IMG/VR virus record: IMGVR_UViG_2802429242_000009 | Coordinates: 1-33,994 of that record | DNA length: 33,994 nt | Origin: a virus | Taxonomy: Duplodnaviria; Heunggongvirae; Uroviricota; Caudoviricetes | Direction: 5' to 3' (one strand) | Shown here: piece by piece, positions 3,001 through 9,000 of the stretch | Position numbering within the stretch: position 1 is the stretch's first letter | Layout of the letters: each line of letters opens with the position of its first letter | Position numbers: made by a program

Positions 3001-6000
3001 TTACCCATTCGGAATCAATCTTGATTGATATGCCGCATTCAACGCCTCCGTTGTTGGGAATATCGCGGTATTCATTGCGCCATCCTGCTTTGCCGCAAAC
3101 ATCGTCCAGGCGTTTCATGATTGCCCTGTTCGTGACATAAGCCAGCACCATAGCCCACACCTTTCCATCGCGTGTTTTACCGCTTTGCTGTATTCGCCAT
3201 TCGATATCTTCAGGGCTGAATGGCTCATCGAATTTATTCAAATCCATAATTCACCTCAGAATGGACACGGCCCAAGGAAATAACGCTGATTTAATACTTC
3301 GACTCGGGACAAATTAAGGCATACCCGCATTCCTTCGCGGTCGCCATTATGGCGATACCAGAGAGCTTTCTGCGTGTACATGCGTCTCTGTAACTTGCTC
3401 TCCTTCACTGTGGTTGCAAGTGGCATGAATATCTCCTTCGTTACCGATTAATTCTTTCATCTGACGAATGAATTCTTCGTCTGACCAGTTATCTGCAAAA
3501 CTCATTTCCTGCGATACCACGGAAGGTTGATAGCTGATTTCATCGCTTTATTTGCTTCAAGCCACATTTTTGAATCACCAATAAATCTGGCTATTACTGC
3601 TTTGTTTTGTGCAGCACGAAGCATCTGGTGATTGATGGCTATTTCATTGCGCATAATAAGACCTCAACTCTTTTCCATCCGTCACGTAATTTACGGGTGA
3701 TTCGTTCAAGTAAAGATTCATTTAATTGGAAGGCACCCATGCGAGCGCCTCCCGCGATTGCGTAAATCATGGGTGGTTCCTTATGTTGGTTTTATTAGTA
3801 GGTTATTTTTGTTGCGAATACTTCGCCTTTTACGATGGCTGTTATGATATTTTTAGCAACATCTTCTGATGCGCCAACCTTGATAAGGTCAGCAAGTATT
3901 TTGTTATTTACTTCTTTCCGGTGAGCTTTATCCTTTGCTCTACGCTCTTCTTCGTCCTTGATTCTTTTTTCTTCTGCTATTCTGGCTTGCTCTTTTACTT
4001 CAGCCTCGCGCCGGATTCGTTCAGCCTCCTCCTGTGCTTTTCGGCGTTCTGCTTCAATTGCCGCCTGCTTTTCTCTTTCAGCTCGTTCTGCTGCCTCTTT
4101 TGCTTCGCGCTGTGCTCGTTGCTCGGCTTCAATACGTTCACGCTCTGCACGTTCCGCTGCTGCCTTAGCTTCTGCTTCTCGCCTTGCTGCTGCTTCAATT
4201 TCGGCTTTTGCCTTTGCTTCGGCTTCAGCTCTGGCTTTCTCTTCAGCTTCTCTTTTTAAGCGTTCTTCATGCTCTCGCTTTTCCTGCTCCGCTTTGAGTC
4301 TTGCCTCTTCTCTTTGGCGGTCAAATTCGCGATCCATCAAAATCGCTATTTCATGGTCAGACTCAATTTGCTTTGCGAGAGCTTCAGCTGCTGCCTTAGC
4401 TTCTTCTTCGGCTTTAATCCGTGCCTGTTCCTCCTCATAATCAGTAAGAGGCTGGCGCGCCTTGGCTTTCAGTTCATCAAGGCGATCGCGCACTGTCTTG
4501 CGGTTGGCATCAATTAGCTTTGGAATTTCCTTCAGTTCAGCAACAAGGTCTTTGCCAAGACCATCGAGATATGTTTTCGTCTGCGCAACTTTATACGCCA
4601 GAGAAGCGATCTCCTTTCTGCCCTTTGCCGTTGTGATATCAGGCACAAAGGACATAACTTCACGTTCAACCTTTTGAAGGATTTCTTCAATCTGGTCGGC
4701 AGACTGAAATACAGTCATTGCATTTGCTTTTTCAATAACAACTAAATCTGTTACTTCACTCATATATATCCTCCGTCAAAAAAATTGCCCTCACACTGGA
4801 GGGCAAAGAAGATTTCCAATAATCAGAACAAGTCGGCTCCTGTTTAGTTACGAGCGACATTGCTCCGTGTATTCACTCGTTGGAATGAATACACAGTGCA
4901 GTGTTTATTCTGTTGTTTATGCCAAAGATAAAGGCCGACTATGCGGCCTCGGAAGGAAGCCCAATCATCTTATTCAAATCTTCTACCCGTAAAGCAGGAA
5001 GTGCTGTACTTGCTTTATCTGCTTCTTTTGGTAGCAATTCTTTGCTTTCAGGCCAAACTTCAATAAGTCGCTTAACTGTTGTGACTGAGTTTAAAGCAGC
5101 CCATACATTTGATTCGATATCCTTTTTCTTGGCTTCAAGTTTTTGTTGCAATGCGCAGATTTCATCAAACCTTTTTGTTATTTCGTGTTCTGCGTCAAAC
5201 ATGCATTTATCTTTTTCTGGGGTGGGGAGCAATATATCTTCACCGTTGCCGTCTTTTCCGTATGAATGCCAGCCAACCCTTCTTCCAGATACAGTCAGAT
5301 AAATCGAAGTAGAACGAACATCGCATGAGTAAAATGAACATCCCATCTTCTCAAGTTCTTCACTTATAGCTGCTAACTTGGATGATAACTGATCCACTTC
5401 CTCAGTTTTATTTTCCCCGCCAAACGCAATAACTCTGGCGTCAAGTGCAAGTTGGTTCTTTAACTTTGTTACTTCTTCAAGTTCAGTGAAAACTCCAGAC
5501 TTAATTAAAGCGTTACGAGCGATTTCCTCTTTCATTCTCGTAGTTAAGCGGATTGATGACATATTAATTCCTCTCAAATAAGTGGTTTGCTACCTAATTT
5601 CATTTTCTGGCGACCAACACAAGTCACGCCCATTTCACTGCGTGGCTTGCGGTAGTAAATACGGTTCTGTTTACGCTCGACTTCATCTGCCTTCTTGCAG
5701 CGAAGGCTGCCAAGTGATGCTGCTTTGTCTGCTCTGACGCAACCAGAGAGCTTTAGCGCAATTTTTCGCGCCAGTCGCTGCTCTTGCATTGCCTGTTCAC
5801 GTTGAGCCTGTCTGCGTGCTCTGCGGCGATTTCTGGCGTTATCGTCAGCCAGATATGTAATGACTACTGTCATGTTGACCTCCGGGAAGGTACACATCCT
5901 TGTGTGTCGATGATTATTTGTTTTTGCGTTCCCACATCCAGTCATCTACTTCAGACCAGATAGTGAAACCGAAGCAGATGGCGAATGTGGTAACTAAACC

Positions 6001-9000
6001 ACCGAGAATTGGGTTGGTCATGATGTCTAACATTTTCTGTTCCTCAGATGATTAGCTTTGGTGGTGTGGTAGGTGGGAGACCCATTTCGACCCGCTTCGT
6101 CCGACTTCAATTCGGCAATAGTCCCGCAGGCCTCGCCGCTTTACGTGCGACATATTCCCGTCCATGAACCCTTCACCACACCCCAAAGCCAACTACTCTT
6201 TGGTTCCCGCATTTCGGCGGGACAATCCCATCAATGTTAAAGAGCCTGCCAATCTGTTCCGTTTGGCTACCAGCGTCCTGCTGATGGCTTAAATTTAAGA
6301 TCTCTTTAATTAATGGTCAAGAGTATTTTTGAAGAAAACTTAAATTTTCTTTCGTAACTTAAGTTTGGCTTTGATTTTTAAAGGAAATAAAAAAAAAGGG
6401 GCGAATGCCCCCTTATGGAAGGTTTGCTAGTTTTGCATCGACAACTACGCCGATGATTTTGCAGTTTCCGTTGATCTCGATCATCGGATATTGTGGGTTA
6501 AGTGGTTTTAGAAACTTCCTGCCTGCATCAATAACTAACTTCTTGAAAGTTGCCTCGTTTTCTCCTTCGAGCTTTGCAACTACCAGTTTCCCGTTACGCG
6601 GCTCTACTTCAGGATCGACGAGTATTATCATTCCTTCAGGGATACTGAGACCGGCCGGAGCCGTCATTGAGTCTCCCTTCACGTCCAACCAAAACGAATC
6701 TTCTGAACAGTCTACGGTTGTATCGTACCAGTTATCTATTGCACGCTTATGATATGGTTCCACAGCTTCCATCCAGCATCCTGCGCTCACCCAGCTAATC
6801 AGAGGGTATGACCCTCTTGGATCATGCCTACTGTGATAGGCAATGTTTGAAAGACTTTCCTCTCCTTTCATCAGATAGTCAGGGGAACACTTCAACGCAT
6901 TAGCCAGGGCGAGAAGATTCTCTCCATTTGGCTCTGTCTCAGAGCGTTCCCACTGAGATATGGCAACATTAGACACGCCGACCATCTTTCCAAGTGCGGC
7001 CTGCCTGATCTTGAGTTCTTTTCTCCGAGCGCGAATGCGCTCTCCCATCAATTGAGTTTTCATAGTTAAGACATCTTAAATAAACTTGACTTAAGATTCC
7101 TTTAGTGGATAATTTAAGTGTTCTTTAATTTCGGAGCGAGTCTATGTACAAGAAAGATGTTATCGACCACTTCGGAACCCAGCGTGCTGTAGCTAAAGCG
7201 TTAGGCATTAGCGACGCAGCAGTCTCTCAGTGGAAGGAAGTCATCCCAGAGAAAGACGCCTATCGACTGGAAGTCGTTACAGCTGGCGCCCTGAAGTATC
7301 AAGAAAGCGCTTACCGCAAAGCGGCATAAGCAAATTGCTCTTTAACAGTCATGGTCCTCATTCCCGCCGAAATGCGGGAATACAACGCGCATAAGTTGAT
7401 GCGCATAACTTCTTATTTGTTAAGGAAATACTTACATATGGTTCGTGCAAACAAACGCAACGAGGCTCTACGAATCGAGAGTGCGTTGCTTAACAAAATC
7501 GCAATGCTTGGAACTGAGAAGACAGCGGAAGCTGTGGGAGTTGATAAGTCGCAGATCAGCAGGTGGAAGAGGGACTGGATTCCAAAGTTCTCAATGCTGC
7601 TTGCTGTTCTTGAATGGGGCGTCGTTGACGACGACATGGCTCGATTGGCACGACAAGTTGCTTCGATTCTCACCAATAAAAAACGCCCGGCGGCAACCGA
7701 GCGTTCTGAACAAATCCAGATGGAATTCTGAGGTAATTACTGGATCTATCAACAGGAGTCATTATGACAAAACAACTCAGTCCTTACCAGGACAAAATTC
7801 ACAAACACATACTACGTGATCGCTTCCTGTCCAGCTTCAAGCAGCCTGGTCGATTCCGGGCTGAGTTGGAAAAGGTGAAGCTGATGCAGAAGGAGAAAGG
7901 TCATGAGTAACATATCTAATCTAGCCGAAGCCAGAGAGGCCAGAAGGCTACAACAACCGCATCAAAGCAGCGGTAAGGGGTATGCCTTGCTGCACCGTAA
8001 AATTATGGATGTGCCGTTTTACAAGGACGCAGAAGCAGCACATCTGTGGGTTCACTTAATCCTCAAAGCAAAGCATACGCCTGAGTATGTAATGACTGAC
8101 GCAGGAGAAATTCTGGTAGGCAGAGGTAAGCTACTTGGCGGTAGAAACTCTCTGGCGTTTGAAACAGGACTCAAACCAGATCGCGTTCAGTACCTGCTTA
8201 GAAAGTTCAAAAAACTCGGCATGATTGACTGGGTTTCACACGGTAAATTCTCAGTTTTCTCGGTAGAGAAATATGACGATTATCAGTCAAATTTTGTACC
8301 AGCAGATTACCAGCAAATTACCACCTCAAAGCCAGCAATACCAATGCCTGTAAGCAATACTGTACCAGCAGATTACCAGCAAATTACCACAGATAAAGAA
8401 TATAATAATATTATCTCTAATACTGACGTATTAGAGAGTGCCACAGCAGACAAAAAGTCTGACAAGAAAAAACCTTCCGTTAGCTGTCAGGATGTTGTCG
8501 ATGCTTACCACGAAATCCTTCCTGAAGCGCCAAGAATCCGCGCACTGAATGACAAGCGTAAAAACCAGATCCGAACGTTCTGGCGCAAAGCCGGAGTGAT
8601 AACCCGCCAGCTTGACGGGCATGGGTTCTCGATGCAGGACTGGAGAAATTATTTGAGCTACGTAGGCGAAAATTGCCGATGGATGTTCGAAGAACGCCCA
8701 AACCATCAACGCGGAACCGTCTGGCACAAAAAGGGATTTGATTTCCTGCTTAACGACAATACCTACCTGAAAGTTCGTGAGGGTGAACACGATGACCGAT
8801 AATTTTTATGCGCCGCCCCATAGCATCGAGGCAGAGCAGGCGGTGATTGGTGGATTGCTTCTGGATGATGACAGCAGTGAGCGCGTCCAGAAAGTTCTGG
8901 CGATGCTGAAGCCTGATTCATTTTACGGCCGACCACACAAAATCCTTTTCGAAGAAATAACCAGAATGCACCGGGAGCAAAAGCCAGTAGATGGCCTGAC

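What the first reader, a model, noticed from the sequence alone, without database searches (positions are those of the whole stretch)
5574..7731. Mosaic regulatory core: lambda-like N joined to a P22-type immunity region
The repressor, Cro and C1 are near-identical to P22 as recalled, and the operators are P22-type. The adjacent N protein has a lambda-like C-terminus rather than resembling P22 gene 24. The recombination junction lies between the pL leader and N, an example of modular exchange at the immunity boundary.
Basis: partly seen in the sequence, partly recalled or inferred. Interest (0 to 1): 0.4.

Follow-up and report, generated by a model that had tools for sequence, protein, structure and literature searches.

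The report
Known mosaic phage immunity/antitermination region
This is the ordinary early control region of a CUS-3-like (P22-like) E. coli prophage, a patchwork of modules from phages P22/21, HK620, 933W and lambda that is already present almost unchanged in sequenced phages and many E. coli genomes.

Summary
The genes are real and at the stated coordinates: N 5574-5873(-), c2 6413-7063(-), cro 7144-7329(+), cII 7438-7731(+).

- **Immunity module:** c2, cro and the operators are P22-type (c2 92%, Cro 95% identical). They are slightly closer to coliphage 21 (about 97%).
- **"C1":** it is not P22-like. It is lambda cII (96/97 aa, against 50% to P22 C1).
- **N:** it is a chimera. Residues 1-36, the arginine-rich RNA-binding arm, match HK620 N 36/36. 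Residues 65-99 match phage 21 N 33/35, lambda N 20/35 and P22 gp24 5/35.
- **nut sites:** nutL and nutR carry identical HK620-type boxB hairpins.
- **Junctions:** there is no single junction between the leader and N. P22/21 homology runs only about 6228-7349, from boxA-L to boxA-R. At least four more breakpoints lie between there and the N stop codon. Lambda homology runs 7421-7771.

CUS-3 (2007) and Gally carry the arrangement at 98.8% identity. 145 of 5426 complete E. coli genomes hold at least 80% of it.

The one less common feature is an unannotated, conserved 39-aa membrane-protein ORF at 5914-6033(-). It sits between a lambda/933W-type leader hairpin and N.

Verdict: textbook lambdoid mosaicism, low interest.

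The parts
5574..5873 (-). N antitermination gene (99 aa). Codons 1-64 are HK620-type and codons 34-99 are phage-21-type, with an overlapping shared middle. The true start is the ATG at 5873, not the upstream ATG at 5945.
   Evidence: ORF. PHROG 271 'anti-termination protein N-like' E=5.8e-37. 97/99 identical to CUS-3 N. Segment identities. DNA matches: 5573-5775 at 96% to phage 21 and 5682-5884 at 97.5% to HK620.
5889..5908 (-). Short stem-loop (GACACACA-AGGA-UGUGUAC) between the small-ORF stop and the N Shine-Dalgarno (GGAGG). The stem is kept with a different loop in a divergent copy.
   Evidence: Found by the pattern scan. Alignment with the AR_0058 and ETEC1730 copies.
5914..6033 (-). Unannotated 39-aa ORF MLDIMTNPILGGLVTTFAICFGFTIWSEVDDWMWERKNK. 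It has one predicted hydrophobic helix and its own GAGGA ribosome-binding site. It is inserted between the leader hairpin and the N ribosome-binding site and is flanked by the direct repeat TAATCATC.
   Evidence: phrog_7482 E=8.1e-25. Absent from CUS-3, Gally, phage 21 and P22. Present in 31 of 5426 E. coli genomes and never annotated. The reading frame and conservative substitutions are kept in an 85%-identical copy. Seven representative clusters in 1.84 billion proteins, with a conserved core.
6049..6190 (-). Long N-leader hairpin of about 140 nt. The base of the stem (GGCUUUGGGGUGUGGUG / CACCACACCACCAAAGC) is the same as in the lambda N leader.
   Evidence: 95.7-97% identical to the nutL-to-N interval of 933W, HK106, mEp234 and CL707. 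MFE -61.5 kcal/mol, z=-3.4, 0 of 200 shuffles as stable. Equivalent hairpins fold in lambda, phage 21, HK620, P22 and 933W.
6204..6245 (-). nutL: boxA GCTCTTTAACA (6245-6235), a 13-nt spacer, and boxB CCCGCCGAAATGCGGGAA (6221-6204).
   Evidence: One of exactly two matches in the window, with 0 expected. Identical to the annotated putative nutL of HK620. The hairpin folds.
6292..6374 (-). pL promoter (-35 TTGACC 6320-6315, -10 ending at 6292) overlapping the P22/21-type operators OL1 (6293-6310), OL2 (6328-6345) and OL3 (about 6356-6374).
   Evidence: Promoter scan. Operator pattern. Alignment to P22 and to the annotated phage 21 OL1-3.
6394..6414 (-). GC-rich hairpin followed by a T-run, directly after the c2 stop. 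This is the terminator of the repressor transcript (t_imm).
   Evidence: Terminator scan. A terminator is annotated at the same place in phage 21 and in HK620 as tIMM.
6413..7063 (-). c2/cI prophage repressor (216 aa), with an HTH_3 domain and a Peptidase_S24 LexA-like autocleavage domain.
   Evidence: Pfam PF00717 E=1.1e-30 and PF01381 E=1.4e-16. 100% identical to CUS-3 cI, 92.1% to P22 c2, and 97.4% to phage 21 cI over 190 aa.
7064..7129 (+). OR3 (7064-7081), OR2 (7089-7106) and OR1 (7112-7129), with pR (-35 TTGACT 7086-7091, -10 GATAAT 7108-7113).
   Evidence: OR1 is identical to both P22 and phage 21. OR2 and OR3 differ from each by at most one base.
7144..7329 (+). cro (61 aa), P22_Cro family.
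   Evidence: PF14549 E=8.7e-28. 58/61 identical to P22 Cro, 59/61 to phage 21 Cro, 61/61 to CUS-3 Cro.
7337..7380 (+). nutR: boxA GCTCTTTAACA (7337-7347), a 15-nt spacer, and boxB CCCGCCGAAATGCGGGAA (7363-7380).
   Evidence: Hairpin -12.5 kcal/mol, z=-4.5. Identical to the annotated putative nutR of HK620.
7381..7420 (+). Putative tR1 region (hairpin GCGCATAAGTTGATGCGC). It is CUS-3/HK620-type sequence lying between nutR and the start of lambda homology.
   Evidence: Alignment. tR1 is annotated at the equivalent place in HK620 and phage 21. Function is inferred.
7421..7771 (+). Lambda-type block. It holds the cII ribosome-binding site and gene (7438-7731, 97 aa), the cII-binding site of pRE TTGCGTTTGTTTGC (7447-7460, minus strand), the oop-type antisense terminator (7707-7680, minus strand) and a pO-like promoter (7752-7725, minus strand).
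   Evidence: 98.3% identical to lambda over 351 bp. cII is 96/97 identical to lambda cII. PF05269 E=1.7e-48. cII site. Promoter and terminator.

Best explanation
This is the early regulatory core of a natural CUS-3-like (P22-like podovirus, Lederbergvirus) E. coli temperate phage or prophage. It is built from at least seven mosaic segments.

**1. Immunity cassette (about 6228-7349).** It has P22/phage-21 specificity. The LexA-like repressor C2 binds OL1-3 and OR1-3 to shut off pL and pR. Cro is the lytic counter-repressor. The cassette is bounded on both sides by boxA sequences and pL-leader sequence that are conserved among lambdoid phages, and exchange can occur within them.

**2. An N/nut set that straddles the cassette.**
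- The N-terminal arginine-rich arm of N (aa 1-36) is identical to that of HK620 N. It is predicted to bind the identical HK620-type boxB hairpins in nutL and nutR.
- The C-terminal third of N is the phage-21/lambda type, which in lambda contacts RNA polymerase.
- With the host Nus factors bound at boxA, N would make pL and pR transcription resistant to termination.

**3. A long leader hairpin.** It is shared with 933W and lambda. In lambda the equivalent hairpin is the RNase III site that controls N translation.

**4. A small 39-aa membrane-protein ORF.** It is inserted between that hairpin and the N ribosome-binding site.

**5. A lambda cII/pRE/oop block (7421-771).** It would drive establishment synthesis of the P22-type repressor.

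The sequence relationships, gene identities, nut and operator motifs and RNA folds are shown here. Immunity specificity, N-boxB pairing, RNase III processing and expression of the small ORF are inferred.
For: **Genes and domains:**

**Protein identities:**
- c2: 100% to CUS-3, 97.4% to phage 21, 92.1% to P22, 35% to lambda.
- Cro: 100%, 96.7%, 95.1% and 26% in the same order.
- cII: 99% to lambda, 50% to P22 C1, 42% to phage 21 cII.
- N: 98% to CUS-3, 69.7% to phage 21, 35.7% to lambda, 26% to P22 gp24.

**N by segment:**
- aa 1-36: HK620 36/36.
- aa 37-64: HK620 26/28, phage 21 27/28.
- aa 65-99: phage 21 33/35, lambda 20/35, HK620 7/35, P22 5/35.

**DNA segments:**
- 5573-5775: phage 21, 96%.
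- 5682-5884: HK620, 97.5%.
- 6049-6188: 933W, 95.7%.
- 6171-6292: HK620, 96.7%.
- 6228-7349: phage 21, 86.9%.
- 6257-7344: P22, 85%.
- 7421-7771: lambda, 98.3%.

**Breakpoints:** they fall immediately after boxA-L and boxA-R (alignments).

**nut sites:** exactly two boxA+boxB copies, identical to those of HK620.

**Operators and promoters:**

**Leader hairpin:**

**Same arrangement elsewhere:** CUS-3 and Gally at 98.8% over 87% of the region. Five E. coli genomes cover 98-100% of it in one piece at 98.8-99.2% identity, and 145 genomes hold at least 80%.

**Whole window:** best matches are P22-like E. coli phages phiv205-1, CUS-3, Huey, Kapi1 and Sf6.

**Roles of boxA (NusB/E) and boxB (N):** stated in PMC4807359.
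Against: - No function was tested. Co-immunity with P22 or phage 21 is inferred from the identical helix-turn-helix and near-identical operators. However, OL1 and OL3 differ from both phages at several positions.
- The Pfam N_peptide match is below the gathering score (20.2 against 27.9 bits).
- The boxB loop (a C/U-flanked GAAA) has not, to my knowledge, been characterised biochemically.
- Exact junction positions cannot be fixed where parental sequences are shared. For example, 6229-6292 is common to HK620, phage 21 and P22.
- The RNase III role of the hairpin is carried over from lambda from memory, not from a held paper.
Confidence: 0.9

Rival explanations
1. A lambda-type N gene is joined by a single recombination junction, between the pL leader and N, to a complete P22 immunity region that includes c2, cro and c1.
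For: - The C-terminal 35 aa of N align to lambda N (E=4e-11).
- c2 and cro are 92-95% identical to P22.
- The operators are P22-type.
Against: - cII is 99% lambda and only 50% P22 C1.
- No lambda DNA homology exists anywhere in N. The only lambda blocks are 7421-7771 and 4779-4942.
- The N arm and both boxB hairpins are HK620-type.
- P22 homology stops at about 6228, inside the leader and about 350 bp before N. Segments of 933W-type and orphan origin lie in between.
Confidence: 0.04
2. The immunity cassette comes directly from coliphage 21 (imm21), not from P22. 'P22-type' is then a misnomer.
For: - At protein level the repressor (97% against 92%) and Cro (59/61 against 58/61) are closer to phage 21.
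- OR3 is identical to phage 21 and differs from P22 by one base.
- The host is E. coli, as for phage 21.
Against: - At DNA level the cassette is about equally distant from both: 86.9% to phage 21 and 85% to P22.
- The sliding-window profile alternates, with P22 closer over about 6404-6553 and 6914-7003.
- It is therefore a third allele of one P22/21 immunity family, not a recent derivative of either. This is a nuance of the best explanation and not an exclusive alternative.
Confidence: 0.3
3. The mosaic is an artefact: a laboratory lambda-P22 hybrid or an assembly chimera.
For: Lambda/P22 hybrids that carry lambda cII-oop joined to P22 orf48-18-12 do exist as laboratory strains (PMC3349717). 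The window likewise joins lambda cII-oop to an ORF48 homologue at about 7771.
Against: - The same region occurs contiguously in independent phage isolates (CUS-3, Gally, JEP4, IME10, N7) and in 145 complete E. coli genomes from varied hosts and countries.
- The replication genes after ORF48 are not P22 18/12 (24% and 33% identity).
Confidence: 0.01

Closest known systems
Enterobacteria phage CUS-3 (CP000711) early region, and close relatives Gally, JEP4, IME10, N7
   Same: - N is 97/99 identical. cI and Cro are 100% identical. cII is 96/97 identical.
- The nutL and nutR boxA/boxB are the same, as are the operators.
- DNA identity is 97-99% over 5573-5884 and 6171-7727.
   Different: - The interval 5885-6170 is replaced. 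CUS-3 has a phage-21/HK620-like leader hairpin plus unrelated sequence, annotated as 'bsq5 boundary sequence'. It has no 39-aa ORF.
- Downstream of N, CUS-3 has ral where the window has an Nmad5-domain gene.
- The replication genes differ.
Salmonella phage P22 immC region (c2, cro, OL/OR)
   Same: - Same repressor and Cro families, with an identical helix-turn-helix stretch.
- OR1 is identical, and OR2 and OR3 each differ by one base.
- Same gene order.
   Different: - Only about 85% DNA identity.
- P22 gene 24, its boxB hairpins, c1, and genes 18 and 12 are all of different types from the window's equivalents.
Coliphage 21: imm21 and N
   Same: - cI is about 97% and Cro 97% identical.
- The 3' two-thirds of N are 96% identical at DNA level.
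- boxA-L, boxA-R and the pL leader are shared.
   Different: - The phage 21 N arm (aa 1-33) and its boxB (UCAACCUAACCGUUGA type) are different.
- Phage 21 cII is only 42% identical.
Coliphage HK620: N and nut sites
   Same: - N residues 1-64 are 62/64 identical.
- The nutL and nutR boxA/boxB are identical.
- The pL leader is 96.7% identical.
   Different: - HK620 N ends in the P22/933W-type C-terminus (..AIYAAGYRKSKQLTAR).
- HK620 has a different immunity (434/L-like cI, lambda-like Cro) and a P22-C1-like cII.
Phage lambda: cII/pRE/oop and the N-leader hairpin
   Same: - The cII block is 98.3% identical at DNA level.
- The pRE cII-binding site is identical.
- The base of the N-leader hairpin has the same sequence.
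   Different: - Lambda cI, cro and the operators are unrelated in specificity (26-35% identity).
- The lambda N arm and boxB differ.
- Lambda has rexAB between cI and OL.

Membership tests
Lambda-N-type processive antiterminators | Small basic protein with an N-terminal arginine-rich motif | tested here: met
   99 aa. Residues 11-25 read DDNARNRRRARRQAQ and align with the arms of lambda, P22 and phage 21 N.
Lambda-N-type processive antiterminators | Cognate nut sites (boxA plus a boxB hairpin) in both the pL and pR early transcripts | tested here: met
   Exactly two copies, at 6204-6245(-) and 7337-7380(+), with 0 expected by chance. The hairpins fold.
Lambda-N-type processive antiterminators | Profile-level homology to the N family | tested here: met
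   PHROG 271 E=5.8e-37. The Pfam PF25694 match is only sub-threshold, at 20.2 against 27.9 bits.
Lambda-N-type processive antiterminators | C-terminal region homologous to lambda N 73-107 (the RNA-polymerase-interacting part, from established knowledge) | tested here: met
   20/35 identical to lambda N 74-107, E=4e-11. 33/35 identical to phage 21 N.
Lambda-N-type processive antiterminators | Nus-dependent antitermination activity | not testable with these tools
   Requires a reporter or in vitro transcription assay.
P22 gp24 / 933W-type N (orthologue of P22 gene 24) | C-terminal motif ..LP.VA.YAAG.RKSKQ.TAR and overall similarity to gp24 | tested here: not met
   5/35 identical in the C-terminal third. 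BLASTP finds only a 22-aa N-terminal match, E=0.043.
P22/phage-21 immunity type (immC / imm21) | Repressor and Cro highly similar to P22 C2/Cro, with a conserved DNA-recognition region | tested here: met
   c2 is 92.1% and Cro 95.1% identical to P22. Residues 17-53, which include the helix-turn-helix, are identical.
P22/phage-21 immunity type (immC / imm21) | Tripartite OL and OR made of 18-bp P22-type operators | tested here: met
   OR1-3 are nearly identical to P22 and phage 21. OL1 and OL2 are clear, while OL3 keeps one consensus half-site.
P22/phage-21 immunity type (immC / imm21) | Homoimmunity with P22 or phage 21 in vivo | not testable with these tools
   Requires a plating test on lysogens.
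LexA-like (S24) autocleaving phage repressors | HTH domain plus Peptidase_S24 domain with an Ala-Gly cleavage site and a Ser/Lys dyad | tested here: met
   PF01381 and PF00717. The sequence shows ..VSAG|CW.., GDSM and FKKL motifs, read directly.
Lambda CII family | Phage_CII domain, with a TTGC-N6-TTGC site overlapping the start of its own gene on the opposite strand (pRE) | tested here: met
   PF05269 E=1.7e-48. 96/97 identical to lambda cII. TTGCGTTTGTTTGC at 7447-7460(-).
   46/92 identical in global alignment and 43/76 in local alignment.

The most novel reading that the evidence does not exclude
The unannotated 39-aa ORF (5914-6033, minus strand) is a genuine, conserved small membrane protein. 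It has taken the position N normally holds directly behind the RNase III-type leader hairpin. That would make it the first protein made from pL, possibly subject to the leader-hairpin/N translational control known for lambda N. It could act as an early host-directed factor or a superinfection-exclusion factor. It occurs in front of at least three different N types: the window's, the HK620-type and the P22-gp24-type.
Probability: 0.45. Interest if true: 0.3.

Novelty: already known. Interest (0 to 1): 0.12.

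Why it matters
It matters little beyond correct annotation. The region is a clean worked example of lambdoid modular exchange. It shows that mosaic junctions fall at conserved boxA/leader linkers and inside N, near the boundaries of the functional domains known from lambda N. It also shows that N and both of its boxB targets must travel together even though they flank the exchangeable immunity cassette.

There are three practical consequences:
- The prophage should be labelled imm P22/21-type, with lambda-type cII and an HK620-specificity N.
- The over-long 126-aa 'cII' and 123-aa 'N' ORFs should be trimmed.
- A conserved 39-aa ORF upstream of N is missing from all 31 E. 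coli genome annotations that hold it.

Tried and rejected
- **Rfam:** a scan of 4500-9000 at E<=1 found nothing. No curated family covers nut, the N-leader hairpin or oop here.
- **First BLAST batch:** it mixed all loci because one file held several records. It was repeated per locus.
- **Fixed-spacer nut pattern:** it gave no match because the nutL and nutR spacers differ (13 against 15 nt). A variable gap solved this.
- **tblastn of the 39-aa ORF against phage records:** only weak 35%-identical hits in unrelated myoviruses. The family is seen only through PHROGs, E. coli prophages and the representative library.
- **NCBIfam:** no model for N, cII or the small ORF.
- **The CUS-3 paper (King et al. 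2007):** it is not held, so what its authors said about this region could not be checked.
- **No held paper found on two points:** phage 21/P22 co-immunity, and the RNase III site in the lambda N leader. Both rest on my own recollection.
- **tRNA-like element in the leader:** considered and rejected for the window (ARAGORN negative). One does occur at that position in a different prophage.
- **cII-site pattern:** the number of matches across the whole window is not above chance (5 against 3.2 expected). Only the pRE site is claimed.

Full report
**What is there**

- a 99-aa N-like gene on the minus strand (5574-5873; the 123-aa ORF from 5945 is an over-extension);
- a 216-aa repressor (6413-7063, minus strand);
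- a 61-aa Cro (7144-7329);
- a 97-aa CII (7438-7731; the 126-aa ORF from 7351 is an over-extension that crosses nutR).

Domain scans agree:
- the repressor has HTH_3 plus Peptidase_S24;
- Cro is P22_Cro, E=8.7e-28;
- CII is Phage_CII, E=1.7e-48;
- N is PHROG 271 'anti-termination protein N-like', E=5.8e-37.

The window as a whole is a P22-like E. coli podovirus genome. Its best matches are phiv205-1, CUS-3, Huey, Kapi1 and Sf6.

I fetched the annotated regions of P22, lambda, phage 21, CUS-3, Gally, HK620 and 933W and compared them with the window.

| Protein | P22 | Phage 21 | Lambda | CUS-3 |
|---|---|---|---|---|
| c2 / cI | 92.1% | 97.4% over the annotated 190 aa (about 210/216 over the full ORF) | 35% | 100% |
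| Cro | 95.1% | 96.7% | 26% | 100% |
| cII / C1 | 50% global (43/76 local) | 42% | 96/97 | 96/97 |
| N | 26% | 69.7% | 35.7% | 98% |

- 'P22-type immunity' is right, although the allele is a little nearer imm21.
- The C-terminal 35 residues of N align with lambda N 74-107 (20/35, E=4e-11). P22 gp24 gives only a marginal 22-residue N-terminal match (E=0.043). The claim 'lambda-like C-terminus, not gp24-like' holds, but the true nearest relative of that part is phage 21 N (33/35).

**N is itself a hybrid**

| N residues | HK620 N | Phage 21 N | Lambda N | P22 gp24 |
|---|---|---|---|---|
| 1-36 (arginine-rich arm) | 36/36 | 9/36 | 10/36 | 10/36 |
| 37-64 | 26/28 | 27/28 | 3/28 | 8/28 |
| 65-99 | 7/35 | 33/35 | 20/35 | 5/35 |

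- HK620 N ends in the P22/933W-type C-terminus.
- At DNA level, 5682-5884 is 97.5% HK620 and 5573-5775 is 96% phage 21.
- From established knowledge of lambda N, residues 1-22 bind boxB, 34-47 bind NusA and 73-107 bind RNA polymerase. The intragenic junctions therefore fall near functional domain borders. This last point is an inference.

**The nut sites go with the arm, not with the immunity cassette**

- The window has exactly two copies of GCTCTTTAACA-N13/15-CCCGCCGAAATGCGGGAA, at 6204-6245(-) and 7337-7380(+). None is expected by chance.
- Both are identical to the putative nutL and nutR annotated in HK620. Both fold as 6- to 8-bp stems with a CGAAAU loop.
- The P22 and phage 21 boxB hairpins at the same positions are quite different.
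- boxA binds NusB/NusE and boxB binds N (PMC4807359).

**Where the junctions are**

The homology blocks, in window coordinates, are these.

| Segment | Content | Nearest source |
|---|---|---|
| 5573-5775 | 3' two-thirds of N | phage 21, 96% |
| 5682-5884 | 5' part of N plus its Shine-Dalgarno | HK620, 97.5% |
| 5885-6048 | 164-bp insertion carrying the 39-aa ORF | absent from every phage record at DNA level |
| 6049-6190 | leader hairpin | 933W, HK106, mEp234, CL707, 95.7-97% |
| 6171-6292 | boxB-L, boxA-L and the pL leader | HK620, 96.7% |
| 6228-7349 | boxA-L to boxA-R | phage 21 86.9%; P22 about 85% over 6257-7344 |
| 7350-7420 | boxB-R and putative tR1 | CUS-3/HK620-type |
| 7421-7771 | cII, pRE site, oop terminator | lambda, 98.3% |

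- The alignments show divergence from P22 and phage 21 beginning immediately 3' of boxA on both sides.
- The stretch from pL +1 to boxA (6229-6292) is common to HK620, phage 21 and P22. The left junction can therefore only be placed within that shared linker.
The P22-type block ends inside the leader, about 350 bp before N, and at least four more boundaries follow.

**Operators and signals**

- P22-type half-sites cluster at OL (6295-6343) and OR (7066-7127). There are 14 matches against 3.9 expected, and no shuffle reached 14.
- OR1 is identical in the window, P22 and phage 21. OR2 and OR3 differ by at most one base.
- Consensus scans find the following:
  - pR at 7086-7113 and pL at 6320-6292;
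  - a terminator hairpin after c2 at 6414-6395;
  - the oop-type terminator at 7707-7680, with a pO-like promoter at 7752-7725.

**Leader hairpin and small ORF**

- The minus strand of 6040-6200 folds into a long hairpin: -61.5 kcal/mol, z=-3.4, and 0 of 200 shuffles were as stable.
- The base of the stem (GGCUUUGGGGUGUG.. / ..CACACCACCAAAGCU) has the same sequence as in the lambda N leader. Equivalent long hairpins with different interiors fold in phage 21, HK620, P22 and 933W.
- In lambda this hairpin is the RNase III site that modulates N translation. That statement is from my own recollection, and I found no held paper for it.
- In 933W, lambda, HK620, phage 21 and P22, the hairpin is followed at once by the N ribosome-binding site. 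In the window it is followed instead by GAGGAACAGAAAATG and a 39-aa ORF, MLDIMTNPILGGLVTTFAICFGFTIWSEVDDWMWERKNK. After that come a short stem-loop and the N ribosome-binding site.
- The insertion is flanked by the direct repeat TAATCATC.

Evidence that the ORF is a real gene family:
- phrog_7482, E=8.1e-25;
- an 85%-identical DNA copy in E. coli AR_0058, in front of a P22-gp24-type N, keeps the frame with conservative changes;
- a copy in ETEC1730 sits in front of an HK620-type N;
- seven representative clusters in 1.84 billion proteins share the core ..NPILGG..TF.IG..FT.WS.V.DWMW.RKNK.

The ORF is present in 31 of 5426 complete E. coli genomes and annotated in none of them.

**Is it new?**

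No.
- CUS-3 (deposited 2007) and Gally match at 98.8% over 87% of the region, and JEP4 at 98.7% over 82%.
- IME10 and N7 match at 99.0-99.4% over 72-73% of the region.
- 145 complete E. coli genomes hold at least 80% of it. Five cover 98-100% of it in one piece, small ORF included, at 98.8-99.2% identity.
- Pervasive mosaicism of the early operons of P22-like phages is already described, including N proteins with a conserved C-terminal part and a divergent N-terminus, and lambda-type alleles in P22-like genomes (PMC2629481).
- Laboratory lambda/P22 hybrids even join lambda cII-oop to P22 orf48 at the same kind of site (PMC3349717).

**Verdict**

The object is a well-known kind of mosaic and essentially an already sequenced allele, so interest is low. 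The only mildly novel item is the unannotated small ORF in the N leader.

Noticed in passing
window 5914-6033 (-): Conserved, never-annotated 39-aa single-helix ORF (phrog_7482). It is inserted between the N-leader hairpin and the N ribosome-binding site and flanked by the repeat TAATCATC. It is found in 31 of 5426 E. coli genomes, in front of at least three N types.
   Followed up: partly
window 4939-5562 (-): The gene immediately downstream of N, where CUS-3, phage 21 and lambda carry ral, encodes a 207-aa Nmad5 protein ('nucleotide modification associated domain 5', PF18757 E=5e-71; phrog_1965). Its start overlaps the N stop codon.
   Followed up: partly
L009 1682-1763 (E. coli AR_0058 prophage): This related prophage carries a tRNA-like element between nutL and the small ORF and N, in place of the leader hairpin. 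PGAP calls it 'tRNA-OTHER' and ARAGORN calls it tRNA-Pro (tgg). No such element is present in the window.
   Followed up: partly
L007 1056-1110 (phage 933W): 933W carries a 55-bp remnant, 98% identical to the window, of the phage-21/lambda-type 3' end of N. It lies just downstream of the stop codon of its own, P22-type-ended N. This suggests the C-terminus was replaced by an insertion.
   Followed up: no
window 13795-13950 (+): Two adjacent tRNA genes, tRNA-Asn (gtt) and tRNA-Thr (tgt), lie in the region downstream of the replication and nin genes.
   Followed up: no
window 7764-10228 (+): After the lambda cII-oop block comes an ORF48 homologue (DUF2740, 85% identical to P22 ORF48). The O-like initiator (299 aa) and the DnaB-like helicase (483 aa) that follow are only 24% and 33% identical to P22 gp18 and gp12, and equally far from those of CUS-3. 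The replication module is therefore yet another type.
   Followed up: partly
window 7351-7731 (+); L001 4760-5140 (CUS-3); L002 3115-3687 (phage 21): Database annotation issues. CUS-3 annotates cII as a 126-aa ORF that starts inside nutR, whereas the lambda-equivalent start gives 97 aa. The phage 21 record annotates cI as 190 aa, although a 216-aa ORF colinear with P22 c2 is intact.
   Followed up: yes
window 13527-13540 (-): A second TTGC-N6-TTGC motif lies antisense inside the 162-aa ORF 13215-13703, which may be the Q-like gene. It could be a paQ-like cII site, but the motif count across the window is not above chance.
   Followed up: no
window 3795-4763 (-): A 322-aa protein very rich in Glu, Ala, Lys and Arg, probably coiled-coil, with no Pfam match. 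It lies in the pL operon and is 98% identical at DNA level to CUS-3.
   Followed up: no
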